From contig DASPXI010000030.1 of the NCBI GenBank assembly GCA_035637335.1, positions 634-64,633 of the forward strand: a stretch of 64,000 nt of DNA. Direction: 5' to 3'. The position numbers and the translations under genes are program-made. The DNA comes from Acidimicrobiia bacterium (GTDB lineage Bacteria; Actinomycetota; Acidimicrobiia; IMCC26256; JACDBD01). Under the pieces are notes generated by a model, which was not told where the DNA came from, made no database searches, and worked only from the letters and a program-made list of their open reading frames with translations. Positions within the stretch are counted from its first letter, which is position 1. Every line of letters begins with the position of its first letter. Shown here piece after piece: positions 5,489 to 60,664 of this stretch.

Positions 5489-5504
5489 CTGACACCAGTG
5501 TCAG
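5489..5504. promoter_or_regulatory. palindromic operator candidate CTGAC-N6-GTCAG
   Basis: caCCTGACaccagtGTCAGcc lies in the 51-bp divergent intergenic region, 5 nt from the synthetase ATG. Confidence 0.6.
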
Positions 5505-5535
5505 CCGCGCGTGGTGACGGGTATCCTCCCCGCGC

Positions 5536-6699
5536 ATGAACGCTACGGAAGTCATCGACTGCGACCAGCACCTGTTCGAGTCGCGAACACTGTGGGCCGA
5601 CTACTCCGACCCGAGCGATCGCGACAAGGCGCTCCAGATCGTGGACGACGAGGCCGGCAATGCTTGGCTGCGTTGGCAGGGCCGCCGCATGGTGCTCGCG
5701 GACGTGACCATTCCCGGCGAGACCGACGAGGTCGGTGCCCGGCTCCAGCGCGCGTTGGCGGGAAAGCCGCCCGAGCACCGGTACGACGACATCCTCCCGG
5801 TCGAGTACTGGCAACCGAGCGCTCGCGTCTCCGAGCTCGACCGTCTCGGTCTCGCGGAGGCGTTCCTGTTCCCGAACTATGGGCTCGTGTGGGAGCACAA
5901 CCTGGTCGGTGACCTCGAGGCCTCGAAGACGAACATGGGCGCGTGGAACCGCTGGGCGCTCGAGGTCGCGGCCGAGGGCAAGGGCCGGTTGCACCCTGTC
6001 GCGCACCTGACGCTCCGCGACCTCGACTGGCTCGATCAGCAGCTCACGGCGCTGGCTTCCGGCGGAGTCCGGCTGGCGATGATCGCGCCGGCGCTCGTCG
6101 ACGGTCGCCCGCTCTCGCACCCTGACCTCGACCGCGCCTGGGCTGCGTTCATCGAGCACGACGTCGCGCCTGTATTCCATGTCGCCAATCAGCAACGGCC
6201 GTTCGACGAGGCCTGGTACGCCTCCGACCCCGAGCCGACGAACCCCGTGTTGTCGTCGGTGTTCCTCTGGGTGCCGGCCGCGCTCGCCATCTCGGACCTG
6301 GTCGTGAACGGCGTGCTCGAACGCCGCCCCGAGCTGCGCATCGGCGTCATCGAGCTGTCGGCGGTCTGGATGCCGATGTTCCTCATGTACCTCGACGGCG
6401 GCGTGCGGTTCGTCACCCGACTGCACGGCAAGGCGGTGGCCGAAGTGCCGTTGGCGCCCAGCGAGTACGTGCGCCGCCAGGTGCGTGTCGCGGCGTTTTC
6501 GTATGAGCGTCCCGAGCGGCTGATCCAGCGCGTCGGCGACTTGTTCATGTGCTGCAGCGACTACCCGCACTCCGAAGGGACCGCGCACCCGCTCGACGAC
6601 TACCGGGCTCTCGACGACACGACTTCCGATCCCGCGAGCGCGCGCGGGCTGTACCACGACAACGCGGCGTGGCTGCTCGGGCGGGGCAACGGCGCGTGA
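5536..6699 (+). CDS. amidohydrolase_2 (ACMSD-like TIM-barrel metal hydrolase) family protein
   Basis: N-terminal VIDCDQHLFE metal motif and C-terminal CCSDYPHSEG motif. 387 aa. Confidence 0.8.
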   Translation: MNATEVIDCDQHLFESRTLWADYSDPSDRDKALQIVDDEAGNAWLRWQGRRMVLADVTIPGETDEVGARLQRALAGKPPEHRYDDILPVEYWQPSARVSELDRLGLAEAFLFPNYGLVWEHNLVGDLEASKTNMGAWNRWALEVAAEGKGRLHPVAHLTLRDLDWLDQQLTALASGGVRLAMIAPALVDGRPLSHPDLDRAWAAFIEHDVAPVFHVANQQRPFDEAWYASDPEPTNPVLSSVFLWVPAALAISDLVVNGVLERRPELRIGVIELSAVWMPMFLMYLDGGVRFVTRLHGKAVAEVPLAPSEYVRRQVRVAAFSYERPERLIQRVGDLFMCCSDYPHSEGTAHPLDDYRALDDTTSDPASARGLYHDNAAWLLGRGNGA

Positions 6700-7589
6700 C
6701 GACGGCCAACGCCGAGTTCGAGTTCCTCGCTCCTCGCCACGACGTTCCCACCGGCGGCCGCAGCGGCTTCACGATCGTCGACGAGCGACAGGTCCACTAC
6801 CTCGAGTGGGGCCCCAGCTCGGCGCGCCCGGTCGTCTGCCTGCACGGCGGCGGCCAGACCGCGTACATGTGGGAGGAGCTGGGCGCGACCTTGGCGCCCA
6901 CGCACCACGTGCTCGCGCCCGACCTGCCTGGTCACGGCGATTCGGACCCCATCGACGAGATGGACCGCCATTCGCTCGCGGCCACGATCCCGCCGCTCTT
7001 GCACGAGTTCGGCCTAGAGCGCGCCGCGTTCGTCGGCGCGTCGTTGGGCGGGATCGTGAGCCTCACGCTAGCCGCCCGGAAGCCCGAGGTTGCCGTTGCC
7101 ATCGCGCTCATCGACATCGGCCATCGACTCGAGGACGAGGGCGTCAATCGCATCATCGACTTCATGACGCGCCACGAGTCGTTCGGCTCGCTCGAGGAGG
7201 CGGCGGCCGAGGTGGCGCAGTACCTGCCGCATCGCAGGCAGGTGAAGGTCGACAACCTACGTCGCAACCTTCGTCAACGTCCCGACGGGCGGTGGGAATG
7301 GAAGCACTCGTACGGGCGGCGCCTGCGCTCCGCCGGGCAGCCACCGGGCGGATGGCGCCAGCTGCTCGCCGGTCTCGATTCCGAGGTCACCGGGCTCACG
7401 TGCCCGGTGCTCGTCTTGCGGGGCGCGAAGAGCGATGTGCTCTCGAGCGAGGGCGCCGAGGAGGTCGCTGCGTTGATTCCCGACGCGCGCCTGGCAACGG
7501 TCGGCAGCGCCGGTCATCACGCCGCCGGCGACAACCCCGAGACGACGGTCAGCCTCGTGCGGGCGTTCCTGTCCGAGACCGGTTGGTGA
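6696..7589 (+). CDS. alpha/beta hydrolase
   Basis: VVCLHGGGQTAYMW, PDLPGHGDS and the nucleophile elbow GASLGG. GTG 6696 overlaps the upstream TGA (GTGA). Confidence 0.8.
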   Translation: MTTANAEFEFLAPRHDVPTGGRSGFTIVDERQVHYLEWGPSSARPVVCLHGGGQTAYMWEELGATLAPTHHVLAPDLPGHGDSDPIDEMDRHSLAATIPPLLHEFGLERAAFVGASLGGIVSLTLAARKPEVAVAIALIDIGHRLEDEGVNRIIDFMTRHESFGSLEEAAAEVAQYLPHRRQVKVDNLRRNLRQRPDGRWEWKHSYGRRLRSAGQPPGGWRQLLAGLDSEVTGLTCPVLVLRGAKSDVLSSEGAEEVAALIPDARLATVGSAGHHAAGDNPETTVSLVRAFLSETGW

Positions 7590-13422: not shown

Positions 13423-13932
13423 TTAGCTCGGCGGTCGGGCGTTGATGACGAGCGTGAAGATCGATGTCACGACCGGCTCACCGGAGTCGGGGTCCTTCCA
13501 GTCGGTCTCGGTCACGTAGAACTCGAGCTTCCCGCCGTTGGACCGTTCCTTCTCGTAGACATCAGTGATCACCGTCGTGCCCTCGAGAACGTCACCGACC
13601 TTCGGCCAGCGGTGGTATTCGAACGCCTGCTCGCCGTGGAGGATGGCGCGACCCGGCCCGCGGAGACGGTCGATGGGCAGGCCGGCGGCGCCGCCGGTGC
13701 CGAGCGAGCCCCAGTACGGCATCACGAACGGGAAGGTCGGCGGCACGGGCGCGCCGTCACGGGTGTATGCCTCGCTGGTGTCTCCGAGCGCCTCCGCAAA
13801 CACGCGCACCGGGCCGCGCTCGATGACGACCTTCTGCGTACCCGTCCGCTGTCCCTTGAGCTCGGTCAATGCCAATGCATCTCCGATCGCCGTCGCAAGC
13901 TCCGGCTGCGTTTTCTCCTGTCGCCCTCGCAA
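13423..13932 (-). CDS. MaoC-like dehydratase, N-terminal-type hotdog subunit
   Basis: Paralog of 42069-42563 (VVIERGPV..FAEALGD..., LHGEQAFEYHRWPKVGDV...). The start is uncertain; TTG 13869 matches the paralog length better than TTG 13932. Confidence 0.75.
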   Translation of the reverse strand: MRGRQEKTQPELATAIGDALALTELKGQRTGTQKVVIERGPVRVFAEALGDTSEAYTRDGAPVPPTFPFVMPYWGSLGTGGAAGLPIDRLRGPGRAILHGEQAFEYHRWPKVGDVLEGTTVITDVYEKERSNGGKLEFYVTETDWKDPDSGEPVVTSIFTLVINARPPS

Positions 13933-13966
13933 GGCTCAGGCTTTGCGGCAACGGCGGCAAACTAGC

Positions 13967-14503
13967 TCAGAGGCCCAGGCGTTCGTTCGCTTCCTCGAAG
14001 ACGCGCCACGGCGGTCCGACCTCGTGCGCCTCCCGGAGCGTGTCCGGCTCCCATTGCGACACGTCGCGGTTGAAGAAGTCGCCACCGTAGACGTGGATGG
14101 ACCCGGTGCACTCACCGAGTGGGTTGTGCACGGCGTGGATCACATCGTCGCCGAGGAGCACGACGTCGGCGGCCGACAGCTCGCGGGTGCGGCGAGGCTC
14201 GATGCTGTCGTCGGCCCGCCGGTAGAACGTGTTGTCCTCCTGCCCGGTATAGATCCCGATCGCCGCCCACATGCTGTGGTCGTGGGGCCAGATGCTCATG
14301 CCCGGCGCCCATACGACCTTCAGCACGGTGAGCTCGGGGGAGTGGTGCAGCGTCGTCAACTCGGCGCGCTCTGCCGGCAGCGCGGTATCGCAGCCCGACG
14401 CCGGGTCGACGGTCCGTTCGAGGAGGTCCGCGATCGCGAGGCGAGGCTCCGCCTCAGCAAGACAGCCCCGACACTCCGCGACGAACGCTTCGACATCCAG
14501 CAT
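13967..14503 (-). CDS. cupin-fold metalloprotein (double-stranded beta-helix, cysteine-dioxygenase-like)
   Basis: 178 aa with WAPGMSIWPHDHSMWA...IHAVHNP His-rich cupin motifs. Confidence 0.6.
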   Translation of the reverse strand: MLDVEAFVAECRGCLAEAEPRLAIADLLERTVDPASGCDTALPAERAELTTLHHSPELTVLKVVWAPGMSIWPHDHSMWAAIGIYTGQEDNTFYRRADDSIEPRRTRELSAADVVLLGDDVIHAVHNPLGECTGSIHVYGGDFFNRDVSQWEPDTLREAHEVGPPWRVFEEANERLGL

Positions 14504-14512
14504 GTGACCAGG

Positions 14513-16063
14513 CTACGCCGGACGCGCCGCGGCCGCCTCTCCCGCGGCGCGCTCGACGAGTCGGTGCTTCATGACCTTGCCAGTCGCGTTTCGCGGCAGT
14601 ATGTCGATGAACGTGACTTGGCGGGGCCGCTTGTAGTCGGCCAGATGCAGAGCACAGAAGTCCTTCAGCTCGTCCTCACTGATGGTGGTGCCGGGCTTGC
14701 GGACCACGAACGCGGCGATGTCCTCGCCGAGGACGTCGTGCGGCACGCCGACGACGGCTGCTTCTTGCACGCGCGGATGCTCGAGGATCACGCTCTCGAT
14801 GTCGGTCGGGTAGACGTTGTGGCCACCCCGGACGATCAGGTCCTTCTTGCGCCCGACGAGGTACAGGAACCCGTCCTCGTCGAGATAGCCGAGGTCACCG
14901 CTGCGCAACCAGCCGTCACTCGTCCACGTGTTCGCCGTGGCTTCCGCGTCCCTGTAGTACTCGCGCCGGTAGCCGCGCAATCGCGTGAGCAGCTCACCGA
15001 CCTCGCCCACCTCGCAATCATTGTCGGCCTCGTCGACGATCTTGATCTCCATCGGCGGGATCGGCTTCCCCACCGAGCCGATGCGCTTCGTCACGTCCTC
15101 CTTCGGCATGACGATGTACGCAGGGCCCGCTTCGGTCATGCCATACGAGTTCGACACGGTCGCGTTCGGGAGCCGCTCTTGCAGCGCAAGCAGCGTGTTC
15201 GGGGCAAGCGGTGCGCTGCCGATCGAAACTGCCTGCAGGCTGTCGAGGTCCGCGGTCGGGAAGTCGGGATGAGCGACGAGTAGCTCGGCCATCGCCGGCA
15301 CGAGGAACGCCATGCTCGGACGTTCACGCGCGACGATCCGCAGCCATTCGCCGGCGTCGAACTTCGGTTGGTACAGACCGCGCATGCCCATCTTCATCGG
15401 GTTGTAGATGAAGGAGATGCCCGCGAACGTGAACAAGGGCGCGCCATGGAGCCAGCCCGCGCCTGTCCACGGCGGCTCGTTGTTGGGGATCATGGCGATG
15501 TTGCCGTGCCGGACGGCGACCCCCTTGGGCAGGCCAGTGGTGCCCGAGGTGTACATGATGTCGGCGAGGTCGTCGGGCCCGACTTCCGTCCGGTATTCGC
15601 CGTCGTCGGCGTCGAAGGCGTCGTCCCAGGCGACGTCGCCTTCTTCGGCGCCGTCGCTCACGAGGAGCTCGATCGATGGCAGCGCTCGTGAAACGTCGCG
15701 CGCATTGCCGAGTAGGGATGCAGACGTCAGCAGCGCGCGAACCTCGGCGTGCCCGAGGATCGCCGTCAGCTCCCGGACCGACAGCCGGGTGTTCGTCGGC
15801 ACCGTCACCGCGCCCGCCTTGTGCACGGCCGCGTAGGCGACGACCCAGCGGATGCACTCCTCGCTCGGCAGGTAGATCGAGACGCGGTCGCCCGACCGCA
15901 CACCTCGCCCGGCGAGACCGCGGGCCAGTGCATTCGAGCGGGCGTCCCAGTCACCGAACGTGATCGCACCGTCCGAACCCAGGTCGCGGTACGCGATCTC
16001 GTCGCCGAAGCGCCGCGCCATGAAGCGCAGCTGATCGACGAGGAGGTCCCCCCAGTCGGGCAT
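14513..16063 (-). CDS. acyl-CoA synthetase (AMP-binding family)
   Basis: IMYTSGTTGLPKGV, YGMTEAG and GWLRSGDLGYLDEDGFLYLVGRKKDLIVRGGHNVYP. ATG 16063 lies 2 nt after the upstream stop. The track ORF is over-extended to 16198. Confidence 0.9.
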   Translation of the reverse strand: MPDWGDLLVDQLRFMARRFGDEIAYRDLGSDGAITFGDWDARSNALARGLAGRGVRSGDRVSIYLPSEECIRWVVAYAAVHKAGAVTVPTNTRLSVRELTAILGHAEVRALLTSASLLGNARDVSRALPSIELLVSDGAEEGDVAWDDAFDADDGEYRTEVGPDDLADIMYTSGTTGLPKGVAVRHGNIAMIPNNEPPWTGAGWLHGAPLFTFAGISFIYNPMKMGMRGLYQPKFDAGEWLRIVARERPSMAFLVPAMAELLVAHPDFPTADLDSLQAVSIGSAPLAPNTLLALQERLPNATVSNSYGMTEAGPAYIVMPKEDVTKRIGSVGKPIPPMEIKIVDEADNDCEVGEVGELLTRLRGYRREYYRDAEATANTWTSDGWLRSGDLGYLDEDGFLYLVGRKKDLIVRGGHNVYPTDIESVILEHPRVQEAAVVGVPHDVLGEDIAAFVVRKPGTTISEDELKDFCALHLADYKRPRQVTFIDILPRNATGKVMKHRLVERAAGEAAAARPA

Positions 16064-16065
16064 GG

Positions 16066-16989
16066 CTACATCGAGAAGGCCATGCCCGGGATGGCGCTGC
16101 CGTTCTCGGCCGGTGCGAACAGCTCGGCCTTGTGAGCGATGAGCTCGTCGACCGTCCAGCGTTTCGCGCCCGCGCCGAGCTCGTTGACGAGCGACCAACC
16201 GCGCATCAGGTAGACGCGATCACCCCACATGACGAAGACCTGTCCGCTCACGTCGCCGGCGGCGTCGCTGGCGAGGAAGCCGATGAGCGGCGCCATGTTG
16301 TCCGGGTCCCAGGCGTCGAACTCGCCTTCCTTTGCCGCCATGAGCTGGTCGGCGCCGGCGACGGTCTCGGTCAGGCGTGTGCGGGCGCGCGGCGCGATTG
16401 CGTTCACGGTCACCCCGTACTTCTGGAGCTCGCGCGCCAACACGATGGTCATCGACGCGATCCCGGCCTTCGCTGCCGCGTAGTTCGACTGGCCCGCGTT
16501 CCCGAACAGGCCCGACTCACTCGACGTATTGATGATCCGTCCAGCGACCGGCTGACCCGCTTTGGCAAGCTCACGCCAGTACTTGGCGGCGAACCGGCTC
16601 GGTGCGAAATGACCCTTGAGGTGCACGCGGATGACGGAGTCCCAGTCCTGCTCGGACAGGTTGAAGCTCATGCCATCGCGCAGGATGCCGGCGTTGTTCA
16701 CGAGGATGTCGAGCTTGCCGAACGTCTCGATCGCCTGTCCGACGAGCGACTCGGCGCCGGACCATGACGCGACGTCGTCGTAGTTGGCGATGGCCTCGCC
16801 GCCTCCGGCGACGATCTCGTCGGCCACCTCCTGCGCGGGCGTCTTGTCGGCACCCTCGCCCTCTCGCGCGCCACCGAGGTCGTTGACGACCACCTTGGTG
16901 CCTTCGCCGGCGAGCAGCAGCGCCTCCCCTCGACCGATCCCGCGGCCGGCGCCGGTGACGATGGCGACCTTGCCATCGACCGTTCCCAT
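16066..16989 (-). CDS. SDR, MFE-2-type 3-hydroxyacyl-CoA dehydrogenase-like
   Basis: GKVAIVTGAGRGIGRGEALLLA..VVVNDLGG...NNAGILRD...SNYAAAKAG. ATG 16989 is preceded by GGAAGGGAG. Paralog of 40997-41932. Confidence 0.85.
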   Translation of the reverse strand: MGTVDGKVAIVTGAGRGIGRGEALLLAGEGTKVVVNDLGGAREGEGADKTPAQEVADEIVAGGGEAIANYDDVASWSGAESLVGQAIETFGKLDILVNNAGILRDGMSFNLSEQDWDSVIRVHLKGHFAPSRFAAKYWRELAKAGQPVAGRIINTSSESGLFGNAGQSNYAAAKAGIASMTIVLARELQKYGVTVNAIAPRARTRLTETVAGADQLMAAKEGEFDAWDPDNMAPLIGFLASDAAGDVSGQVFVMWGDRVYLMRGWSLVNELGAGAKRWTVDELIAHKAELFAPAENGSAIPGMAFSM

Positions 16990-17040
16990 GCACGCTCCCT
17001 TCCTCTCTCGACTGCCCACGATCTCCGGACGGCGACATTA

Positions 17041-17056
17041 CTGACTTGGACGTCAG
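17041..17056. promoter_or_regulatory. palindromic operator candidate CTGAC-N6-GTCAG
   Basis: ttaCTGACttggacGTCAGgta lies in the divergent region between the SDR operon (16989) and the thiolase (17102). Confidence 0.6.
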
Positions 17057-17101
17057 GTACGCTCCTCGCAGATCGCGCACCGAACGCCGGAGGGGATCAC
17101 C

Positions 17102-18292
17102 ATGGGTGACGCCGTCATCGTGTCCGCCGCCCGCACCGCCATCGGGACGGCGCGGAAGGGCTCGCTCGCCGACGTCGACGTGTTCGAGCTCGCCAAGGCG
17201 TCGATCGGCGAGGCCCTGAAGCGCTCGAGCATTCCCGCCGAGGACGTCGACGACATCATCATGGGCGAGTCGCTCCAGGGCGGCGGTTGCGTGGCGCGCT
17301 ACGCCGCGGTCGACCTCGGGCTCACCGATATCCCCGGGCTCGCGCACAACCGGCACTGCGCGTCGGGCATGGCGCCGATCCAGACCGCCGCCGCGAGCAT
17401 TCGCGCCGGCATGGACCGCGTCGTCATCGCCGGTGGCGTCGAGAGCATCACGCAGAGTCCGGTGGTGATGAAGAAGCTGCCCGGGTCGTACTCGGGTGTG
17501 CAGCCGTGGCTGTCACCCAGCCACCCGGCGACCCCTGACGCCCCGACGATGGACATGTCGATCACCGTCGGGTGGAACACCGCGGTCACGGCCGGCGTGA
17601 GCCGCGAGGAGCAGGACGACTGGGCGTACCACTCGCACATGCGTGCGGTCGCCGCCACCGACGAAGGCCGGCTCCGCGACGAGATCTTCGCCATGGAGGT
17701 GCCCGTGCCGGGCGCGCGTGGCGAGACCCGCACCTTCGACGTCGACGAGCACCCGCGGCGTGACACCACACCCGAGAAGCTGGCGAAGCTCCCGCCACTC
17801 CACCCGGAGATCGAAGGCTTCAGCATCACCGCCGGCAACTCTTCCGGGCTGAACGACGCGGGGTGCGCGGTGGTCGTCACCGACGGCGACTACGCGCAGG
17901 AGAACGGGCTCGAGCCGATGGCCGTCGTCCGATCGTGGGCGTCGGTCGGCGTGCCGCCCCGCGACACCGGGCTTGCACCGACGCTCGCGATTCCCAAGGC
18001 GGTCGAGCGCGCCGGGATCTCGCTCTCGGACCTCGACCTCGTCGAGATCAACGAGGCGTTCGCGTCGATGGCGGTGGCCTCGAGCCGCATCCTCGGCTTC
18101 CCGCACGAGATCGTGAACGTGAACGGCAGCGGCTGCAGCCTCGGCCACCCGGTCGCGGCCACGGGCGCCCGCATGGTCACGACGATGATCTACGAGCTGC
18201 GGCGCCGCGGCGGCGGACTTGGCTGCGTGAGCATGTGCGCGGGTGGCGGCATGGGCTCCGCCACGGTGCTCGAAGTACTGCCGCCGTCGTAG
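17102..18292 (+). CDS. acetyl-CoA C-acyltransferase (thiolase)
   Basis: Active-site NRHCASGM, GSGCSLGHPVAATG and MCAGGGMG. GGAGGGG RBS. Confidence 0.9.
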   Translation: MGDAVIVSAARTAIGTARKGSLADVDVFELAKASIGEALKRSSIPAEDVDDIIMGESLQGGGCVARYAAVDLGLTDIPGLAHNRHCASGMAPIQTAAASIRAGMDRVVIAGGVESITQSPVVMKKLPGSYSGVQPWLSPSHPATPDAPTMDMSITVGWNTAVTAGVSREEQDDWAYHSHMRAVAATDEGRLRDEIFAMEVPVPGARGETRTFDVDEHPRRDTTPEKLAKLPPLHPEIEGFSITAGNSSGLNDAGCAVVVTDGDYAQENGLEPMAVVRSWASVGVPPRDTGLAPTLAIPKAVERAGISLSDLDLVEINEAFASMAVASSRILGFPHEIVNVNGSGCSLGHPVAATGARMVTTMIYELRRRGGGLGCVSMCAGGGMGSATVLEVLPPS

Positions 18293-19080
18293 GTTCTCAG
18301 CTCATCGACCCTGACCTCGCGTTCGCACTCGAGCTCGCCGACGCCGCCGACGAGATGACGGTGCCGCGGTTTCGCGCCCGCGATCTCGTCGTCGAGAGCA
18401 AACCCGATCTCACGCCGGTGACCGAGGCCGATCGTGCCGCGGAGAAGGCATTGCGGGCCCGGATCGAAGCCGAGCGTCCCGCCGACGGCGTGATCGGAGA
18501 GGAGTATGGCGATACGACGGGAAGCGGGAACCGTCGCTGGATCCTCGATCCCATCGACGGGACCAAGAGTTTCGTACGCGGCATCCCGGCGTGGGGAACC
18601 CTGATCGCGCTCGAGCGCGACGGCGGGATCGTCGTGGGTGTCGTGTCGGCGCCGGCGCTGCGCCGCCGGTGGTGGGCGGCGCGGGGCGAGGGGGCGTTCG
18701 CGGATGGCGAACGGATACACGTGTCTCGTGCCAACGCCATCGAGGACGCGCTCATGTGTTTCACGTCAGTGACCGCGTTCGATGACTACGGACTAGGAGA
18801 ACAGTTCCGTACGCTCGCCGGCCGGTGCTGGGAGACTCGGGGCTTCAGTGACTACTGGGCTCACGTGCTCGTTGCCGAAGGGAGCGCCGACATCGCCGTC
18901 GAGCCGGCGATGAATCTGTGGGACAACGCCGCGCTCCAGGTGATCGTCGAAGAGGCGGGTGGTCGTTTCACGGACCTCGAAGGCACCCCGCGCGTCGACG
19001 GCGGCGACGCCGTGACCACGAACGGACTCTTGCACGACGAAGTGCTCTTGATCATGCGAGGTAAGGGCCGAGGCCGATGA
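18235..19080 (+). CDS. hisN: histidinol-phosphatase, inositol monophosphatase family
   Basis: Near-colinear with my memory of mycobacterial HisN: KPDLTPVTEADRAAE, WILDPIDGTKSFVRGIPAWGTLIAL, SAPALRRRWWAARGEGAF and TTNGLLHDEVL. The start is uncertain because no canonical start sits next to the conserved N-terminus. GTG 18235 would overlap the thiolase by 58 nt. Confidence 0.8.
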   Translation: MRGWRHGLRHGARSTAAVVGSQLIDPDLAFALELADAADEMTVPRFRARDLVVESKPDLTPVTEADRAAEKALRARIEAERPADGVIGEEYGDTTGSGNRRWILDPIDGTKSFVRGIPAWGTLIALERDGGIVVGVVSAPALRRRWWAARGEGAFADGERIHVSRANAIEDALMCFTSVTAFDDYGLGEQFRTLAGRCWETRGFSDYWAHVLVAEGSADIAVEPAMNLWDNAALQVIVEEAGGRFTDLEGTPRVDGGDAVTTNGLLHDEVLLIMRGKGRGR

Positions 19081-20411
19081 CCGAGGTGACCGTGGGCATT
19101 GACATCGGCACGTCATCGGTGAAGGCCGTCGCCGCCGACGGCGACGGCAACGTCGTCGCGTCGGCGCGCGTCCCGCATCGCTTCCGCGTGCCGACACCGC
19201 TGCGTTTCGAGCACGACGCCGACGAAGCGTGGCGGCACGGCCCGCAAGCGGCGCTCGACGCGCTCGGCGACACGGTCCCCGCGGGCGTGTGCGTGGCTGC
19301 GATGGTCCCCTCGCTGACTGCCGTCAACGCGGCGGGCGTGCCGATCTCGCCGGGTCTGCTCTACGGCGACGAACGCGGTCACCACGGCGCGCGCGCCGGC
19401 CATCCGGCCGAGAGCGGCGAGCTACTCGCATTCCTGCGTTGGACGGTAGGGGAGGCGCCCGACGCCGCCGGCTACTGGCCCGCGCAGGCGGTCGCGAACC
19501 ACGCTCTCGCCGGCGAGCCCGTGCTCGACACCACCACCGCTGCGACCGCGTACCCGCTGTTCGACTGGACAGGCTGGGATCCGAAGCTCGCCGCCGATGT
19601 CGGTGTAACGCCCGAGCAGCTGCCCAAGCTCGCACCGACGGGGCAGGCGTGCGGGCGCGTCGGCGGTGCGGATGGTCCGGCGTTGGCGTCGGGATGTATC
19701 GACGCGTTCGCAGAGCAGCTCGTGGCCGGGGCCGACGATGACGGCGACGTGCTGATCATCTTGGGCACGACGCTGATCGTGTGGGCGGTCACGTCACGCG
19801 ACGAGCCCGTACCGGACCATTACCTGATCCCGCATACGGCGCCGGGCAAGATGCTCGTCGGCGGGCCGAGTAACGCGGGCGGGCTGTTCCTGAACTGGGT
19901 GACGGGTCTGGTCGCGGAAGGGGAGCCGCCCACAGACCCCGGTCGCGTTCCCGTGTGGGCGCCGTTCCCGCGCGGCGAACGCGTGCCACTCAACGACCCC
20001 GAGCGCCGCGCCGTCCTCGCCGGCCTCGACCTCACGAACACATCTGGGGCGGTGCGACGCGCCGCGTTCGAGGCGTCGGGGTTCGTCGCTCGCCGCATGC
20101 TCGAGGCGACCAAAGTGGAAGCGCGCCGCATCGTCGCGACCGGCGGTGGAACTCGTGTGGACGATTGGGTGCAGGCGCTCGCTGACGCGACGGCTATGCC
20201 TGTCGACTGCGTCGCCGTCCCCGAAGGAGGCGCCCTCGGATCGGCCTGGCTGGCGCGGATCGCGGCCGGGCTCGAGGAGTCCACGGCGATGCCCGAGGGT
20301 CGGCGCTGGGCCCGCACCGGCCGCCGAGTCGAGCCCGACGCGCGCTGGGCGCCGGTGGTGGCGGAACGCTACGAGCAGTTCCTCGGCCTCACCGGGTTGG
20401 GCCGGCCCTGA
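19077..20411 (+). CDS. FGGY-family carbohydrate kinase (xylulokinase-like)
   Basis: VGIDIGTSSVKAV N-terminal motif, 444 aa. ATGA overlap with hisN. Confidence 0.75.
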   Translation: MTEVTVGIDIGTSSVKAVAADGDGNVVASARVPHRFRVPTPLRFEHDADEAWRHGPQAALDALGDTVPAGVCVAAMVPSLTAVNAAGVPISPGLLYGDERGHHGARAGHPAESGELLAFLRWTVGEAPDAAGYWPAQAVANHALAGEPVLDTTTAATAYPLFDWTGWDPKLAADVGVTPEQLPKLAPTGQACGRVGGADGPALASGCIDAFAEQLVAGADDDGDVLIILGTTLIVWAVTSRDEPVPDHYLIPHTAPGKMLVGGPSNAGGLFLNWVTGLVAEGEPPTDPGRVPVWAPFPRGERVPLNDPERRAVLAGLDLTNTSGAVRRAAFEASGFVARRMLEATKVEARRIVATGGGTRVDDWVQALADATAMPVDCVAVPEGGALGSAWLARIAAGLEESTAMPEGRRWARTGRRVEPDARWAPVVAERYEQFLGLTGLGRP

Positions 20412-24028: not shown

Positions 24029-24052
24029 GGCTGCGAGCCTATGCAGGGAAAC

Positions 24053-24068
24053 CTGACGCTCGTGTCAC
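24053..24068. promoter_or_regulatory. palindromic operator candidate CTGAC-N6-GTCAC
   Basis: aaCCTGACgctcgtGTCACta lies 20 nt upstream of the fused ACAD ATG. The core and spacer are identical to the 60649 site. Confidence 0.6.
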
Positions 24069-31676: not shown

Positions 31677-31677
31677 C

Positions 31678-42068: not shown

Positions 42069-42563
42069 ATGGCCCTCGACACCAGCGTCATCGGGAAGCC
42101 GACCGGCGCGCACCGCGTCGTCGTCGAGCGCGGCCCTGTCTCCAACTTCGCCCGCGCGCTCAAGGACGAGAACCCCGTCTACCACGACCCGAATGCGGCC
42201 AAGGCGGCCGGATTCGCCGATATCCCCGCCCCGCCGACGTGGTCGTTCGCCATGCCCTTCTGGGGCCGGTTCGCCGAGGAGCAGCCGGAGGACCCGACCG
42301 GTGGCGAGAACCCCATGCACGAGGTGATGGGGGAGCTGTTCGCCAAGGGCGGTCTGGTGCTGCACGGTGAGCAAGAGTTCGAGTACCACAGGCCGATCGT
42401 CGTCGGCGACGTGGTGGTCGGCGAAGGGCGCATCGTCGACCTGTACGAGAAGGAGAGCAAGGGTCGCACGATGACCTTCGTCGTGACCGAGACCGTGTGG
42501 CGGGACGAGAAGAGCGGCGAGCCGGCCGTGACCGAGCGGTTCAACCTCATTCATCGTTCGTAA
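42069..42563 (+). CDS. MaoC-like dehydratase, N-terminal-type hotdog subunit
   Basis: 164 aa, paralog of 13423-13932. GGAGG RBS. Confidence 0.75.
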   Translation: MALDTSVIGKPTGAHRVVVERGPVSNFARALKDENPVYHDPNAAKAAGFADIPAPPTWSFAMPFWGRFAEEQPEDPTGGENPMHEVMGELFAKGGLVLHGEQEFEYHRPIVVGDVVVGEGRIVDLYEKESKGRTMTFVVTETVWRDEKSGEPAVTERFNLIHRS

Positions 42564-42589
42564 CGGGTCAGGACAGGGGGGACTCCAGC

Positions 42590-43366
42590 ATGGGTCGACT
42601 CGACAACAGGGTCGCGATCATCACCGGCGCCGGTCAGGGCATCGGGCTCGCCTACGCAAAGCGCTTCCTCGACGAGGGCGCCAAAGTCATCGTGGCCGAG
42701 ATCAACGAGGACCGCGCCAACTCGGCGATGGAGCAGCTCGAGAAGCTCGGCGACGCCGCCTTCGTGCAGACGGACATCTCCGACGAGCAGTCCGCGCTCG
42801 CGTGCGCGGCGAAGACCAAGGATCAGTTCGGCGGGATCGACATCCTCGTCAACAACGCCGCGCTCTACTACGACATCGACAACGAGAACAACGACTACGA
42901 CTACCTGCAGAAGGTTTTCAGCGTGAACCTCCACGGCGCCTGGCTCATGGCCCGAGCGTGCGCGCCGACGATGGTGGAGCAGGGCTGGGGGCGCATCATC
43001 AACCAGTCGTCGGACGCCGCGTACCTGTACAACATCGTGCCGCCCGGTGAGTTCCAAGAAGTCAGCGCGTTCACGTACAGCCAGACGAAGTGGGGCGTGC
43101 TCGGGCTCACGAAGTTTCTCGCTGCCCAGCTCGGTCAGTACAACATCACGGTCAATTGCATCGCACCGGGTGTGACGATGACCGAGGCGACGCGGAAGAT
43201 CGTCCCCGAGAGCATCATCGACCTGCTCCCGGCAATGAGCGCGATGAAGCGCAAGCTCGAGCCCGAGGACCTCGCCGGCACGGCGGTGTTCTTCGCCAGC
43301 GACGACGCCGCCCTGGTGACCGGTCAAGTGCTGTGCGTCGACGGCGGCTCGATCATGCCCGCGTAG
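42590..43366 (+). CDS. SDR family oxidoreductase
   Basis: RVAIITGAGQGIG, NNAAL and YSQTKWG. ATG 42590 is preceded by a GGGGGG run. The track ORF start at 42497 is over-extended. Confidence 0.85.
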   Translation: MGRLDNRVAIITGAGQGIGLAYAKRFLDEGAKVIVAEINEDRANSAMEQLEKLGDAAFVQTDISDEQSALACAAKTKDQFGGIDILVNNAALYYDIDNENNDYDYLQKVFSVNLHGAWLMARACAPTMVEQGWGRIINQSSDAAYLYNIVPPGEFQEVSAFTYSQTKWGVLGLTKFLAAQLGQYNITVNCIAPGVTMTEATRKIVPESIIDLLPAMSAMKRKLEPEDLAGTAVFFASDDAALVTGQVLCVDGGSIMPA

Positions 43367-57762: not shown

Positions 57763-58299
57763 ATGCGTTCTCTTCGTCGCTATTTCGTGTTCGGACCCCT
57801 GATCGCCGCAGCCGTTGCATTCGCCGATGCGGCGCCGGCGGCAGCGAAGGACACCGGCGTCTGCACCCTGTTGACGCGCTCGGAGGCCGGGAAGCTCCTC
57901 GGGGCAAAGGTCGTGAAGACCGAGAAGAAGACGAGCAAGATCAACGACGCCCAGGAGTGCACCTACAAGACGAACAAGGCCCAAAAACAGTTCAAGGATC
58001 GCGGTGCGAAGATGCAGCTCGAGGTGACCGTACAGCCCGTCACGGACAAGCTGCGGGCCGAGCTGCAGCGCATCCCGACCAACGAGGGGGAGCGGGTCGA
58101 AGGTCTCGGCGACGAGGCGTACGCGACGAAGTTCGACTATGTCATAGCCGTCTCCGGCAACACCGCCGTGCAGGCGAAGCTGCAGAACTACCAGGGCTCG
58201 CCGACGAAGTTCCGCAGCGTGTCGGAAGGCGCAGTACGCATGGCGTTGCCGCGCCTCGACCGGGTATCGGTGAAGCCGCCAAGCAGCGCGCCGAGCTAG
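57763..58299 (+). CDS. secreted protein (DUF3558-like, two conserved Cys)
   Basis: Signal peptide MRSLRRYFVFGPLIAAAVAFADA. The mature part is Lys-rich, with GVCTLLTRSEAGKLLG and ECTY. Lower GC than the flanks. Confidence 0.65.
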   Translation: MRSLRRYFVFGPLIAAAVAFADAAPAAAKDTGVCTLLTRSEAGKLLGAKVVKTEKKTSKINDAQECTYKTNKAQKQFKDRGAKMQLEVTVQPVTDKLRAELQRIPTNEGERVEGLGDEAYATKFDYVIAVSGNTAVQAKLQNYQGSPTKFRSVSEGAVRMALPRLDRVSVKPPSSAPS

Positions 58300-60632
58300 T
58301 CGAGCGCGCCGTCGCGCTCGAGCTCTTTGCGTTCGGCCGGCGAGAGCCCGAGTACTTCGCCCAGCGCCCAGTCGTTGTCCTGGCCGAGCGTCGGACCCGA
58401 GCGGCTGTAGCCGTGCGGCGCGTCGCTCAGCCTGATGCCGTTGCGCTCGTACAGCCCTTCGCCCATGAACGGGTGCGTGAGCCGAACGAAGTGCGCACGC
58501 GACGCGACTTGGGGGTCGTCGTGCACGTCGCCGAAGTCCCACACGGGGACGGCTTCGATGCCGGCGGACTGGAGCAGGTCCGCGACCTCCTCGCGCGTGC
58601 GCGTCGACGTCCAAGCTCCGACGGCGGCCTCGACGTCGTCGACGCGCTCGAGCCGCGCCGTCAGCGTGGCCAGGGACGGATCGTCGAATCCGATGATGCC
58701 CGACAGGCGTGTCCATTCGTTGTCGGTCCAGCACGCGATGGCGACCCAACGATCGTCACCGCGGCACGCGAAGACTCCGTGCGGGACGGCGCGTGTCGAC
58801 CGGTTGCCCATGCGCGTGCCGATCACGCCGTCGAGCTCGTACTCGAGGAGCCACGGGCTCAGTGAGTAGCTCCCCGCCTCGACCTGGGCGAGGTCGAAGT
58901 AGACACCCCGCCCGGTCCGCCGCCGGTACAGCAGCCCGGCGGCCAACGCCGAGGCGACGAAGCGAGGCCCGAGCGAATCGGTGATCGTGCCGTACGGCCC
59001 GACCGGCTCCCGGTCGGGCCAACCGGTGAGCCAGTTGAACCCCGACAGCGCCGCGCCCTGCCCCCCGAACCCCGGGTAGTCGCGATGCGGGCCGGTCTGC
59101 CCCTGCAGGCACGAGCTCACCATCACGAGATCGGGTTTGACCGACGCGAGCGTGTCGTAGCCGAGTCCGAACCCGCGCATCGCCCGCGGCGCGAAGTTCT
59201 CGACGACGGCATCCGCCCATTCGCCGACGAGCCGCTTCACCACGTCGATCGCCTTGGGATGCTTGAGGTTCAGCGTGAGGCTGCGCTTGCCGACGTTGAG
59301 GCCGTCGAACATCGGCGCCCCCTCGAGCCCGTGCGGGTTGTCAGGGCCGAGCGCGTACACGCGCAGGAAGTCCGGGCGGCTGCGCGATTCGACCCGCAGC
59401 ACCGTCGCGCCGTGCTCCACGAAGTAGCGCGTCGCGATCGGCCCTGCTGCCCCCGACCCGAACTCGATGATGTTCGTGCCGTCCCACGCCGGCCCCCCGG
59501 CGCGTTGGGACACGATGTGGGTGCCGGGAGCCGCATCGTGTCCCAGCGTGGGGGTGCCCGAGCCCAACTCGGGCGCAGGACCCGACGGGCGTGCGGGCGC
59601 CGCCTCGCCGTCGCGGCTGGAGACGATCACGAACGACCGCGGGAACCGGGCGACGTCCCCGAGCGGACCGAAGAACTCGCGCGCCGCAAGCTGGGCGCTG
59701 GCGTAGATCTCACGGGGTGAGTTGCACGGGGCGAGCATGAGGTTGGTCTCGCACGCGATCTCGTACAGCTCCTGCATCGTGTGACGGGCGAAGTACTCGG
59801 CGACCGGCTCCTCGATTGCTTTCAGCTCCTCGTCGGAGGCGGTCGTGTGCGAGAAGTCGTGCCAGTCGCGTTCGGTCAAAGCGCGCGCGTCGATGCCGTC
59901 GTCGACCGCCAGGCGCGTGAGTGTCTGGAGGCTGGGCATCCGTGCCTTGCCGCCGCGCAGGCCGAAGGAGACCCACCCGTCCTTGCACGGCCAGATCTCG
60001 CGCGTGCGGCCGATGTTGGCGCCGCGCCGCGCGCCCCGGTGCCCGGTCTTCGGGAACGACGCGAGCCCGACCATGTTGGAGACGAACACGACCTCCTGCA
60101 TCGAGACGTCGACGCGCTGTGGAGCACCCGACGCCAGCGCGGTCAGCACCGCGAACGCGGTCTCGGCGCCGACGTGCGAGTAGCCGGACGGCTCGCTGCA
60201 GCGCACGGGCGGGCGATCGGGGTCGCCGGTGGCGAACATGTTCCCGCTCGATGCCATGACCCCGAGGTCAGAGGCACTCCAGCCGGCGCGCGGCCCGGTC
60301 CGACCGAACGGCGTGACGCTCACCCAGACCGCGTCGGGCGCGCGCGCCGGGTCGAGCTCGGTCGCGCCCGGAAAGCCGGGCGTTTCGATCACGGCGTCGG
60401 CCATTGCGAGCAGCTCGTCGAGACGTGGGTCGTCGGGCCCGTCGACCGCGACGCTCGACTTGCCCGCGCCCCAGGCGAGGAAGCGGCGGGGGAGCGCGCG
60501 CAGCGGGTGACCGTCCGGCGGTTCGACGAGGATCACGGCGGCACCGAGGTCGGCCAGGATGCGCCCCGCCATCGCGGCCGGCTCGCCGGCGAGATCGACG
60601 ACGCGGGTGCCGGCCAAGAGTGCTTCGGTCAT
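58296..60632 (-). CDS. tandem (two-module) family III CaiB/BaiF CoA-transferase
   Basis: Two consecutive modules each start with the family N-terminal pattern (GTRVVDLAGEPAAMAGRILADLGA... and GTNIIEFGSGAAGPIATRYFVEHGA...). 778 aa. Confidence 0.8.
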   Translation of the reverse strand: MTEALLAGTRVVDLAGEPAAMAGRILADLGAAVILVEPPDGHPLRALPRRFLAWGAGKSSVAVDGPDDPRLDELLAMADAVIETPGFPGATELDPARAPDAVWVSVTPFGRTGPRAGWSASDLGVMASSGNMFATGDPDRPPVRCSEPSGYSHVGAETAFAVLTALASGAPQRVDVSMQEVVFVSNMVGLASFPKTGHRGARRGANIGRTREIWPCKDGWVSFGLRGGKARMPSLQTLTRLAVDDGIDARALTERDWHDFSHTTASDEELKAIEEPVAEYFARHTMQELYEIACETNLMLAPCNSPREIYASAQLAAREFFGPLGDVARFPRSFVIVSSRDGEAAPARPSGPAPELGSGTPTLGHDAAPGTHIVSQRAGGPAWDGTNIIEFGSGAAGPIATRYFVEHGATVLRVESRSRPDFLRVYALGPDNPHGLEGAPMFDGLNVGKRSLTLNLKHPKAIDVVKRLVGEWADAVVENFAPRAMRGFGLGYDTLASVKPDLVMVSSCLQGQTGPHRDYPGFGGQGAALSGFNWLTGWPDREPVGPYGTITDSLGPRFVASALAAGLLYRRRTGRGVYFDLAQVEAGSYSLSPWLLEYELDGVIGTRMGNRSTRAVPHGVFACRGDDRWVAIACWTDNEWTRLSGIIGFDDPSLATLTARLERVDDVEAAVGAWTSTRTREEVADLLQSAGIEAVPVWDFGDVHDDPQVASRAHFVRLTHPFMGEGLYERNGIRLSDAPHGYSRSGPTLGQDNDWALGEVLGLSPAERKELERDGALD

Positions 60633-60648
60633 CGTCCCTCTCGTCGAC

Positions 60649-60664
60649 CTGACGCTCGTGTCAG
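60649..60664. promoter_or_regulatory. palindromic operator candidate CTGAC-N6-GTCAG
   Basis: gaCCTGACgctcgtGTCAGac lies 17 nt from the CoA-transferase ATG and 54 nt from the amidohydrolase ATG. Confidence 0.6.

What the first reader, a model, noticed from the sequence alone, without database searches (positions are those of the whole stretch)
5489..60664. Recurrent 16-bp palindrome CTGAC-N6-GTCA(G/C) in promoter regions of the catabolic operons: a candidate regulon with an unidentified regulator
Six copies sit in short intergenic regions next to gene starts:
- 5489-5504: caCCTGACaccagtGTCAGcc
- 17041-17056: ttaCTGACttggacGTCAGgt
- 24053-24068: aaCCTGACgctcgtGTCACta
- 30162-30177: aaCCTGACgggtgtGTCACgg
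- 41961-41976: aaaCTGACgtcggcGTCACgg
- 60649-60664: gaCCTGACgctcgtGTCAGac
Two sites share an identical core plus spacer (24053 and 60649). Two others share extended flanks GAAA...GGTATCG (30162 and 41961). The sites lie 5-52 nt from starts of acyl-CoA synthetase, SDR, ACAD, CoA-transferase and amidohydrolase genes. That position fits repressor operators overlapping the -10/TSS region. In a by-eye, non-exhaustive scan, other CTGAC pentamers inside genes were never followed by GTCA at N6. The motif does not look like the KstR (TnnAACnnGTTnnA) or KstR2 (AnCAAGnnCTTGnT) boxes known for actinobacterial steroid regulons. Neither TetR gene in the window has the motif in its own promoter, so the regulator is probably encoded elsewhere.
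Basis: seen in the sequence. Interest (0 to 1): 0.8.

Follow-up and report, generated by a model that had tools for sequence, protein, structure and literature searches.

The report
Conserved TetR operator of lipid-catabolic regulon
The repeated palindrome is a real, evolutionarily conserved repressor-binding site that sits on the promoters of fatty-acid/steroid-side-chain-like breakdown genes in uncultured soil Acidimicrobiia, and its most likely regulator is a TetR-family protein encoded inside the window itself.

Summary
CTGAC-N6-GTCA(G/C) occurs at exactly the six stated places, all intergenic: 9 strand matches against 0.38 expected. The window comes from an uncultured soil Acidimicrobiia genome.

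In window + 78 related genome loci (1.35 Mb) a slightly relaxed pattern gives 132 sites. Of these, 109 fall in the 11% of sequence that is non-coding. Only the N6 spacing is enriched: 71 intergenic and 7 coding, against at most 1 intergenic for any other spacing.

The site is kept at orthologous promoters down to about 60% protein identity. The extended consensus is ACCTGAC-N6-GTCAGGT. It abuts or overlaps -10/-35 elements, often of leaderless genes and of back-to-back divergent promoters.

At the FadE34-like double acyl-CoA dehydrogenase, Frankiales and Mycobacteriales orthologues carry a KstR box at the same position.

The TetR gene at 31678-32358 is the only regulator conserved in synteny, one gene from site 4. 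Its N-terminal arm and helix-turn-helix are almost identical to a paralogous Acidimicrobiia TetR that carries a perfect copy of the motif in its own divergent promoter.

This is an ordinary kind of system (TetR repressor and operator), but an undescribed member. No binding or expression data exist.

The parts
5487..5506 (.). Operator site 1, ACCTGACACCAGTGTCAGCC. It lies between the acyl-CoA synthetase gene (3913-5484, -) and the Amidohydro_2 gene (5536-6699, +).
   Evidence: The same gene pair carries a site in L028. A TATCCT box at 5522-5527 lies 8 nt before the ATG at 5536, which suggests a leaderless start.
17039..17058 (.). Operator site 2, TACTGACTTGGACGTCAGGT. It lies between the SDR gene (16066-16989, -) and the thiolase gene (17102-18292, +), flanked by two back-to-back -10-like boxes.
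   Evidence: TACGCT at 17058-17063 (+) and TAATGT on the minus strand at 17035-17040 start at the last base of, or directly next to, the 20-bp site. The arrangement is kept in L013, L014, L034, L037, L061, L074, L082 and L085.
24051..24070 (.). Operator site 3, ACCTGACGCTCGTGTCACTA. It covers about -37 to -18 of the leaderless promoter of the double acyl-CoA dehydrogenase gene (24088-26253, +).
   Evidence: TAGGAT at 24075-24080 lies 7 nt before the ATG. The same layout occurs in orthologues from 92% down to 60% identity. A KstR box occupies this place in L071, L073 and L080.
30160..30179 (.). Operator site 4, ACCTGACGGGTGTGTCACGG. It lies upstream of the ACAD gene (29010-30140, -) and overlaps the stop codon of the acyl-CoA synthetase gene (30174-31676, -).
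   Evidence: It is conserved in about 20 loci. A TACCGT -10-like box on the minus strand overlaps the arm.
41959..41978 (.). Operator site 5, AACTGACGTCGGCGTCACGG. It lies between the SDR gene (40997-41932, -) and the MaoC-type hydratase gene (42069-42563, +).
   Evidence: The same gene pair carries a site in L065. It has the same TACCGT box as site 4.
60647..60666 (.). Operator site 6, ACCTGACGCTCGTGTCAGAC. It lies between the double type-III CoA-transferase gene (58296-60632, -) and the Amidohydro_2 gene (60718-61884, +).
   Evidence: A TACTGT box lies at 60667-60672 (+).
31678..32358 (+). Candidate regulator: a TetR-family protein. The long form starts at GTG 31678; alternative starts are TTG 31768 and ATG 31792.
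   Evidence: - Pfam TetR_N scores 65 bits.
- The AlphaFold2 model has pLDDT 84 and a TetR fold.
- It is the only transcription factor conserved in synteny.
- Its arm and helix-turn-helix are invariant with an autoregulated paralogue.
30174..31676 (-). Acyl-CoA synthetase gene, divergent from and back to back with the TetR gene. It has no operator on its own promoter. I infer that it makes the CoA-thioester inducer.
   Evidence: Pfam AMP-binding. The ATG at 31676 and the TetR GTG at 31678 are adjacent. The conserved DNA ATCGTACAAGTC matches a TACGAT -10 box 9 nt before the ATG.
13423..16989 (-). Putative target operon of site 2: SDR, acyl-CoA synthetase, an unknown 178-aa protein and a MaoC-like hydratase.
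   Evidence: Gene map and Pfam. Operon membership is inferred from short gaps between genes.
17102..20411 (+). Putative target operon of site 2: thiolase, an inositol-phosphatase-like gene and an FGGY kinase.
   Evidence: Synteny is conserved.
24088..26253 (+). Target of site 3: a 721-aa fused double acyl-CoA dehydrogenase with FadE34/ChsE3-like architecture.
   Evidence: Pfam shows two ACAD units. Orthologues in Frankiales and Mycobacteriales sit next to a KstR-like TetR and a KstR box.
29010..30140 (-). Target of site 4: an acyl-CoA dehydrogenase.
39003..41932 (-). Putative target operon of site 5: SDR, enoyl-CoA hydratase and an Ltp/SCP-x-type thiolase.
42069..43366 (+). Putative target operon of site 5: MaoC-type hydratase and SDR.
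58296..60632 (-). Target of site 6: a double type-III CoA transferase.
60718..61884 (+). Target of site 6: an Amidohydro_2 protein.
3143..5484 (-). Putative target operon of site 1: acyl-CoA synthetase and a DUF2889-like protein.
5536..7589 (+). Putative target operon of site 1: Amidohydro_2 and an alpha/beta hydrolase.

Best explanation
The 16-bp core CTGAC-N6-GTCA(G/C), full consensus ACCTGAC-N6-GTCAGGT, is the operator of a dimeric TetR-family repressor. That repressor controls a regulon of beta-oxidation and steroid-side-chain-like catabolic operons in Acidimicrobiia.

The operator lies on the -35/spacer region, or directly against the -10 box, of the target promoters. Often it lies between two back-to-back divergent promoters, so a bound dimer would exclude RNA polymerase from one or both.

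The most likely repressor is the TetR encoded at 31678-32358. A paralogue with the same DNA-binding domain, encoded elsewhere in Acidimicrobiia genomes and autoregulated through the same motif, may share the sites.

By analogy with KstR, KstR2 and Bacillus FadR, I infer that release is triggered by an acyl-CoA pathway intermediate. The neighbouring acyl-CoA synthetase (30174-31676) has no operator on its promoter and is a plausible maker of that inducer.

Shown: that the sites exist, their enrichment, their spacing specificity, their conservation, their position on promoters, and their association with TetR genes of one DNA-binding-domain type. Inferred: binding itself, repression, and the identity of the ligand.
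For: 1. Six exact sites against 0.38 expected, all intergenic.
2. In 1.35 Mb of window plus relatives there are 132 sites, 109 of them in the 11% that is non-coding.
3. With exact 5+5 arms, N6 gives 71 intergenic and 7 coding. Every other spacing from N2 to N10 gives at most 1 intergenic.
4. The site is kept at orthologous promoters of the double ACAD, ACAD_31, SDR_19/thiolase_20, FadD_18/thiolase_20, ACAD_31/ACAD_60 and SDR_43/MaoC_44, down to about 60% protein identity. The spacer varies while the arms stay fixed.
5. The position relative to TANNNT boxes and leaderless ATGs is fixed.
6. KstR boxes and KstR-like genes occupy the equivalent place in Frankiales and Mycobacteriales.
7. TetR_33 is the only regulator conserved in synteny.
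8. An unbiased metagenome scan with the perfect 20-mer found 59 intergenic sites in high-GC contigs. All 7 TetR-like genes among the 334 genes called there directly flank the site.
9. Four of those TetRs, plus two more on Mb-scale Acidimicrobiia contigs, have the site in their own divergent promoter. They share an invariant N-arm and helix-turn-helix with TetR_33 (...SHGTFYLYF.NKEDLLRAL), giving 71-75% identity in the DNA-binding domain against 36-37% overall.
10. TetR_33 has a confident TetR fold.
Against: - There is no experimental binding or expression evidence.
- TetR_33 has no copy of the motif in its own promoter in any of about 22 loci, which is unusual for TetR repressors.
- Clades that lack TetR_33 in the fetched locus still carry the sites (L017, L023, L024, L058, L062, L070), so another protein must read them there, or TetR_33 lies elsewhere in those genomes.
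- A second, different TetR type (L106, L124, L187) also sits next to perfect sites, so adjacency alone does not identify the binder.
- My gene calls and my TetR detector are home-made, and the detector is biased towards TetR_33-like sequences.
- The -10 assignments are pattern matches, not mapped transcription start sites.
Confidence: 0.62

Rival explanations
1. The sites are real TetR operators, but they are read by the paralogous, autoregulated TetR (L137/L209 type) encoded outside the window. The in-window TetR_33 binds a different sequence or has a purely local role.
For: Only the L137-type TetR has the motif in its own promoter. TetR_33 does not. The sites persist in clades where TetR_33 is not in the fetched locus.
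Against: The arm and helix-turn-helix residues are invariant between the two types, so different DNA specificity would be surprising. TetR_33 is tightly syntenic with a site and with the regulon genes. Whether the window's genome encodes the paralogue could not be checked.
Confidence: 0.22
2. The palindrome is the site of a regulator from another family. One option is a LuxR-type protein, because the 20-mer fits the CTG-N10-CAG skeleton of lux-type boxes (recalled from memory). Others are a CRP/FNR, MarR, IclR or GntR protein encoded elsewhere.
For: A 20-bp palindrome is compatible with many dimeric helix-turn-helix families. A cyclase-containing STAND ATPase (33010-36291) lies near the cluster.
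Against: No gene of those families flanks any of the roughly 170 intergenic sites examined. The STAND/cyclase protein has no helix-turn-helix. The TGA-N8-TCA spacing differs from the TGA-N6-TCA of CRP/FNR sites. The association with TetR genes of one DNA-binding-domain type is specific.
Confidence: 0.08
3. The element acts as RNA or as a structural repeat rather than as a protein-binding DNA site: a 5'-UTR hairpin, a terminator, or a REP-like intergenic repeat.
For: The arms can form a 5-7 bp stem. Site 4 folds better than its shuffles (z = -3.3).
Against: - At leaderless genes the element lies upstream of the -10 box, so it is not transcribed from that promoter.
- Five of the six hairpins are no more stable than shuffles, at about -6 kcal/mol, and none is followed by a T run.
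- The arm sequence is conserved rather than the pairing. GTCAC and GTCGG variants are not compensated.
- There is no Rfam match.
- The spacing is strictly N6.
Confidence: 0.03
4. The recurrence is chance, or a by-product of shared promoter sequence, with no dedicated regulator.
For: The outer bases (the A before CC and the T after GG) partly coincide with adjacent TANNNT boxes.
Against: None of 100 shuffles reaches the observed count. Density in intergenic DNA is about 38-fold higher than in coding DNA. The spacing is exclusive. The core CTGAC/GTCAG is not a sigma-factor element, and it is palindromic.
Confidence: 0.02

Closest known systems
KstR regulon of Mycobacterium and Rhodococcus (a TetR repressor of cholesterol-catabolic genes; box TnnAACnnGTTnnA)
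   Same: Both have one TetR-type palindromic operator repeated on many promoters of a large lipid/steroid-type catabolic cluster, often in divergent intergenic regions. The FadE34-like double ACAD is a target in both. In Frankiales and Mycobacteriales orthologues a KstR box sits exactly where the CTGAC motif sits here.
   Different: The operator sequence and length differ. TetR_33 scores 20 bits on the NCBIfam KstR model, whose cut-off is 280. KstR is autoregulated from the fadE34-kstR intergenic region; TetR_33 has no site of its own. The window contains none of the ring-opening genes (kshA, kstD, hsaA-D), so the substrate need not be a steroid.
KstR2 regulon
   Same: Both involve a TetR repressor answering to a CoA thioester. 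The window holds an ipdAB/echA20/ipdC-like block at 51465-54882.
   Different: That block carries no canonical CTGAC-N6-GTCAG site and no KstR2 box. It has only a variant that is 1 bp shorter, at 54893-54911.
Bacillus FadR (YsiA), an acyl-CoA-responsive TetR
   Same: It is the best sequence match to the TetR_33 helix-turn-helix in PDB and NCBIfam (GTIYLYFKNKEDIL against GTFYLYFANKEDLL). Both control beta-oxidation genes.
   Different: The match is 45-50 bits and covers the N-terminal domain only, against a cut-off of 200. The ligand domain is unrelated at sequence level. From memory, the Bacillus FadR box is a different, longer sequence bound by two dimers.
BkaR/Fad35R (Rv2506) of mycobacteria
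   Same: It is an autoregulated TetR lying divergent to scoA/fadD-type genes, like the L137/L209-type paralogue.
   Different: The published operator is GTTA-N-T-N4-A-N-TAAC (PMC3920632), which is not this motif.
FdmR, the mycobacterial TetR repressor of fatty-acid catabolism (Dong et al. 2021, PNAS)
   Same: Same logic: a global TetR repressor of fadE, fadA and ech genes.
   Different: Its operator and sequence could not be compared, because the paper is not in the held library. Identity with this system is therefore untested.
RutR box of E. coli (TTGACCAnnTGGTCAA, from memory)
   Same: It has the same TGAC-N6-GTCA skeleton and is bound by a TetR-family dimer. This shows that the geometry suits the family.
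   Different: The outer and inner bases differ, the pathway is unrelated (pyrimidine degradation), and TetR_33 scores only 23 bits on the RutR model.

Membership tests
TetR-family repressor/operator system | The regulator has an N-terminal TetR-type helix-turn-helix (Pfam PF00440) and an all-helical ligand domain. | tested here: met
   TetR_N scores 65 bits, E 4.6e-18. The AlphaFold2 model has pLDDT 84 with helices H25-H220, and its Foldseek top hits are all TetR-family structures.
TetR-family repressor/operator system | A palindromic operator of about 15-20 bp overlaps the core promoter elements of the target genes. | tested here: met
   The consensus is the 20-bp palindrome ACCTGAC-N6-GTCAGGT. 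It abuts TANNNT boxes or covers the -35 region of leaderless promoters. The promoters themselves are predicted, not mapped.
TetR-family repressor/operator system | The regulator physically binds the operator and is released by a ligand. | not testable with these tools
   This needs EMSA, footprinting or DAP-seq, plus ligand titration.
TetR-family repressor/operator system | The regulator gene is linked to, or autoregulated through, the operator. | tested here: inconclusive
   TetR_33 is syntenic but has no site of its own. A paralogue with the same DNA-binding domain has the site in its own promoter.
KstR regulon | The regulator matches the KstR equivalog model (NCBIfam NF033703, cut-off 280 bits). 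| tested here: not met
   TetR_33 scores 20 bits and TetR at 9202-9810 scores 18.8 bits. For comparison, Frankiales neighbours of the orthologous ACAD score 230-234 bits.
KstR regulon | The operator is TnnAACnnGTTnnA. | tested here: not met
   None of the six sites fits it. True KstR-type boxes (AGGAACGTGTTCTAGT) are seen only in L071, L073 and L080.
BkaR regulon | The operator is GTTA-N-T-N4-A-N-TAAC (PMC3920632). | tested here: not met
   The sequences differ.
Bacillus-type FadR (NCBIfam NF053878) | A full-length match above 200 bits. | tested here: not met
   The score is 50.4 bits, over residues 3-50 only.
CRP/FNR-type site | A TGTGA-N6-TCACA or TTGAT-N4-ATCAA core, that is TGA-N6-TCA. | tested here: not met
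   The motif is TGA-N8-TCA. CTGA-N6-TCAG shows 0 intergenic and 17 coding occurrences in the relatives.
Known RNA families (Rfam 15) | A match at gathering score. | tested here: not met
   No matches in the whole window.

The most novel reading that the evidence does not exclude
Acidimicrobiia may use one shared operator 'word' (ACCTGAC-N6-GTCAGGT) that is read by two or more paralogous TetR repressors. These would have an identical DNA-binding head but divergent ligand domains, so several acyl-CoA signals would converge on one large lipid/steroid-side-chain-like regulon. In this reading the FadD_32-TetR_33 pair is an operator-free, constitutive 'sensor module' that makes and senses the inducer. 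The system would have replaced KstR at the FadE34-type promoter, a non-orthologous displacement of regulator and operator within the Actinomycetota.
Probability: 0.3. Interest if true: 0.6.

Novelty: new member of a known kind. Interest (0 to 1): 0.45.

Why it matters
Acidimicrobiia are abundant in soil and freshwater but almost entirely uncultured, and nothing is known about how they regulate carbon catabolism.

A well-defined operator gives three things:
- a way to delimit a whole regulon in any MAG by pattern search;
- a concrete protein-DNA pair that can be synthesised and tested without cultivating the organism;
- an example of the same catabolic promoter (FadE34-type ACAD) being controlled by KstR in one order and by a different TetR and operator in another class.

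It also flags which of the many paralogous acyl-CoA genes in these genomes belong to one pathway. The biology itself, a TetR repressor on lipid-catabolic promoters, is conventional.

Tried and rejected
- **Regulators hidden in ORFs next to the sites.** The protein at 23291-24028 has no Pfam or NCBIfam hit and no HTH-like sequence. The roughly 245-aa proteins upstream of the ACAD in relatives are alpha/beta hydrolases.
- **STAND/cyclase protein at 33010-36291.** It has AAA_16, TPR and a C-terminal cyclase but no DNA-binding domain.
- **TetR at 9202-9810.** Its promoter holds a different palindrome (TGAGGAATTG-ATG-CAATCCCTCA), it has an unrelated helix-turn-helix, and it is not syntenic in relatives.
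- **TetR beyond the left end of the window (L008 19936-20601).** No site lies nearby.
- **TTGACGCACGCGTCAA at 38435.** It is a perfect palindrome but is absent from relatives. ATGACCCCGAGGTCAG at 60256 lies inside a gene. I dropped both.
- **BkaR as the identity of the autoregulated paralogue.** The published operator differs.
- **FdmR.** The paper is not available, and secondary papers give no motif or locus tag. My recollection that FdmR was Rv3208 was wrong; Rv3208 is FasR.
- **Literal searches for the motif string in the paper library.** No hits. 'Acidimicrobiia' plus 'KstR' also gave none.
- **PDB sequence and fold searches.** These returned only generic TetR neighbours and no clue to the ligand.
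- **Co-occurrence of the two TetR types in one genome.** This could not be established with the look-ups allowed.
- **Relaxed search with 3 mismatches in the window.** It is not enriched (35 found against 43 expected), so there is no evidence for further degenerate sites.

Full report
**1. The observation**

The pattern CTGACNNNNNNGTCAS matches at 5489, 17041, 24053, 30162, 41961 and 60649. Three of these sites are perfect palindromes and match on both strands, which gives 9 strand matches. One hundred dinucleotide-preserving shuffles give a mean of 0.38 and a maximum of 3. The quoted sequences, the identical core of sites 3 and 6, and the shared flanks of sites 4 and 5 are all correct.

The looser TGAC-N6-GTCA adds two more matches, at 38436 and 60257. 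The first is not conserved in any relative and the second lies inside a gene. I do not count either. Allowing three mismatches gives no enrichment, 35 found against 43 expected, so the six sites form a sharply defined class.

**2. Context**

The window has 66-71% G+C. The same DNA is present in soil metagenome assemblies (JGI 3300012350, ENA ERZ27253196). Those public gene calls and Pfam hits, together with my codon-usage gene map, give the annotation.

All six sites lie between genes. Five lie in divergent promoter regions:
- acyl-CoA synthetase | Amidohydro_2
- SDR | thiolase
- unknown | double ACAD
- SDR | MaoC hydratase
- double CoA-transferase | Amidohydro_2

The sixth lies between two co-directional genes, overlaps the stop codon of an acyl-CoA synthetase gene, and precedes an ACAD gene.

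The closest genomes are uncultured Acidimicrobiia MAGs.

**3. More than chance, and conserved**

I fetched 78 loci around orthologues of the double ACAD. Upstream of that gene the motif is kept at the same distance from a TAGGAT/TATCCT/GACTAT box and a leaderless ATG, in orthologues from 92% down to 60% protein identity.

In window + loci (1.35 Mb, 89% coding by my caller) a slightly relaxed pattern finds 132 sites. Of these, 109 lie in the 11% that is non-coding.

The same promoters carry the site again and again: SDR_19|thiolase_20, FadD_18|thiolase_20, ACAD_31 (with the FadD_32 stop codon inside the site), ACAD_31|ACAD_60, SDR_43|MaoC_44 and FadD_6|Amidohydro_2. In relatives it also precedes a cytochrome P450, a ferredoxin-reductase-like gene and MaoC/DUF35/Ltp genes.

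A spacing control is decisive. With exact CTGAC/GTCAG arms, N6 gives 71 intergenic and 7 coding occurrences. Every other spacing from N2 to N10 gives at most 1 intergenic occurrence.

Outside the pattern, the flanks extend the palindrome to ACCTGAC(G/A)-N4-(C/T)GTCAGGT.

**4. Position on promoters**

- At the double ACAD the core occupies -35 to -20 relative to the ATG. TAGGAT lies at 24075-24080, 7 nt before the ATG.
- At site 2 the core sits exactly between two opposed -10-like boxes. TACGCT (17058-17063, +) serves the thiolase gene and TAATGT (17035-17040, -) serves the SDR gene. The same boxes flank the site in relatives.
- At sites 4 and 5 the shared flank GGTATCG is the complement of a TACCGT box that overlaps the arm and faces the minus-strand genes.
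- In more distant relatives ACAD_31, ACAD_60 and FadD_18 have operator, -10 box and leaderless start in a row.

These promoter elements are pattern matches, not mapped 5' ends. Their regularity across lineages nonetheless fits an operator that blocks RNA polymerase.

**5. Not RNA, not another known element**

Five of the six sites fold no better than shuffled sequence, at about -6 kcal/mol, and none is followed by a T run. Arm variants (GTCAC, GTCGG) are not compensated. At leaderless genes the site lies upstream of the -10 box. Rfam and tRNA scans of the window are empty.

**6. The regulator**

No flanking ORF of unknown function looks like a DNA-binding protein. The nearby STAND/cyclase protein has no helix-turn-helix.

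The only transcription factor conserved in synteny is the TetR at 31678-32358. The arrangement is always ACAD_31 - site - FadD_32 - TetR, in about 22 loci. It has no site of its own. Its GTG lies back to back with the ATG of FadD_32, and the conserved DNA there (ATCGTACAAGTC) looks like the -10 box of a leaderless FadD_32.

An unbiased scan of metagenome contigs with the perfect 20-mer returned 120 stretches. In the high-G+C stretches, 59 of 67 sites are intergenic, 18 sit next to homologues of the window's enzymes, and all 7 TetR-like genes among the 334 called genes directly flank the site.

Four of these TetRs (L137, L164, L175, L182) are divergent from a ScoA-like CoA-transferase operon. 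So are their relatives on two Mb-scale Acidimicrobiia contigs (L209, L210), where AAACCTGACCACCGTGTCAGGTTAG lies in the shared promoter.

These proteins are only 36-37% identical to TetR_33 overall. Their N-terminal arm and helix-turn-helix, however, are invariant with it: PA..R.LR.QG(R)RTM..L..A...RG(Y)H(A).RV.D.V..A.(T)SHGTFYLYF.NKED(L)LR(AL), where residues in parentheses are at least 90% conserved rather than invariant. Identity across the DNA-binding domain is 71-75%.

Paralogues with the same DNA-reading head are expected to read the same DNA. TetR_33 is therefore the best candidate for the six sites, possibly together with its autoregulated paralogue. It has a confident TetR fold with a disordered, arginine-rich N-terminal arm.

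A second TetR type (L106, L124, L187) also neighbours perfect sites. Whether it binds the motif or is a target of it is unknown.

**7. Mechanism proposed**

- A TetR dimer binds ACCTGAC-N6-GTCAGGT and occludes the -35/-10 region of one or two promoters (position shown, binding inferred).
- An acyl-CoA intermediate releases it. This is inferred from KstR, KstR2 and Bacillus FadR, and from the fact that TetR_33's helix-turn-helix is most similar to Bacillus FadR.
- FadD_32 carries no operator, so it could supply the first CoA thioester before induction (inference).

**8. Comparison with known systems**

The system works like KstR. At the FadE34-like ACAD, Frankiales and Mycobacteriales orthologues carry a KstR-type box and a KstR-like gene in the same place.

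It is not a member of the KstR, BkaR or Bacillus FadR families. The FdmR operator could not be obtained, so identity with FdmR is untested. The paper library holds no report of this motif, or of KstR-type regulation in Acidimicrobiia.

The window lacks ring-opening steroid genes. The substrate is best described as a steroid-side-chain-like, branched or alicyclic acyl-CoA, and it remains unidentified.

**9. Verdict**

The regulon signal is real and strongly supported, and it comes with a concrete candidate regulator. It is of a familiar kind: a new member of the TetR repressor/operator systems that control lipid catabolism. Interest is moderate. It offers a practical handle on regulation in an uncultured class and an example of regulator displacement, but no new principle.

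Noticed in passing
window 27126-28193 (minus strand); TGA at 27849-27851: The two ORFs here are one gene interrupted by an in-frame TGA within the sequence IAAWASW*GCRMS. NCBIfam NF041054, 'ResA-like WAxxUGC motif-containing protein', matches at E 3.5e-98. This is a candidate selenocysteine-containing thiol-disulfide oxidoreductase. A hairpin follows the TGA but is not better than shuffles. The split gene pair is conserved in the closest relatives.
   Followed up: partly
window 54893-54911: ATCTGATGGCCCGTCAGAT is a 6+6 palindrome with the same CTGA...TCAG core but 1 bp shorter. It lies in the 49-nt gap between the ipdAB/echA20/ipdC-like operon (46527-54882, -) and an SDR gene (54932, +). Only one similar element was seen in relatives (L049 1857, GATCTGACGGATCGTCAGATA). 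It could be a weak or variant site, or the site of another regulator.
   Followed up: partly
window 9140-9200: TGAGGAATTG-ATG-CAATCCCTCA is a 10+10 palindrome with one mismatch, in an unusually AT-rich stretch just upstream of the other TetR gene (9202-9810). It is probably that regulator's own operator and is unrelated to the CTGAC motif.
   Followed up: no
window 31670-31700: The acyl-CoA synthetase ATG (31676, -) and the long-form TetR GTG (31678, +) are back to back. The DNA ATCGTACAAGTC just inside the TetR reading frame is conserved even at third-codon positions across distant relatives. This fits a TACGAT -10 box for a leaderless synthetase mRNA embedded in the TetR 5' region. The true TetR start (31678, 31768 or 31792) is unresolved.
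   Followed up: partly
window 33010-36291 (minus strand): This 1093-aa STAND-type protein has an N-terminal AAA_16 ATPase, MalT-like TPRs and a C-terminal adenylate/guanylate cyclase domain, and no DNA-binding domain. It is conserved next to the TetR in the closest relatives. It may provide a cyclic-nucleotide signalling input to the cluster.
   Followed up: no
L106 6699, L124 376, L187 3153 (metagenome contigs): A second TetR type, with helix-turn-helix ...G(T/A)FYQYFRDR... and a C-terminal WEEVTHVD motif, also sits directly next to perfect ACCTGAC-N6-GTCAGGT sites. A similar helix-turn-helix occurs in the TetR just beyond the left end of the window (L008 19936-20601), which has no site nearby.
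   Followed up: partly
L011, L012, L018, L046, L064, L082 upstream of the double ACAD: In several close relatives a segment of about 65 bp (ggcggctttgccgaccgtcgccgcaggagcccgagc.tgcgagggcgacc...) is inserted between the operator/-10 box and the ACAD start codon. Similar GC-rich sequences occur in window intergenic regions (for example 1390-1450, 13900-13960 and 37420-37470). This may be a small mobile intergenic repeat.
   Followed up: no
L063 (Frankiaceae-labelled MAG contig): This contig carries three canonical CTGAC-N6-GTCAG sites, one with the same GCTCGT spacer as window sites 3 and 6. Other Frankiales and Mycobacteriales loci instead use KstR boxes. Either the motif extends beyond Acidimicrobiia or the contig is mis-binned.
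   Followed up: no
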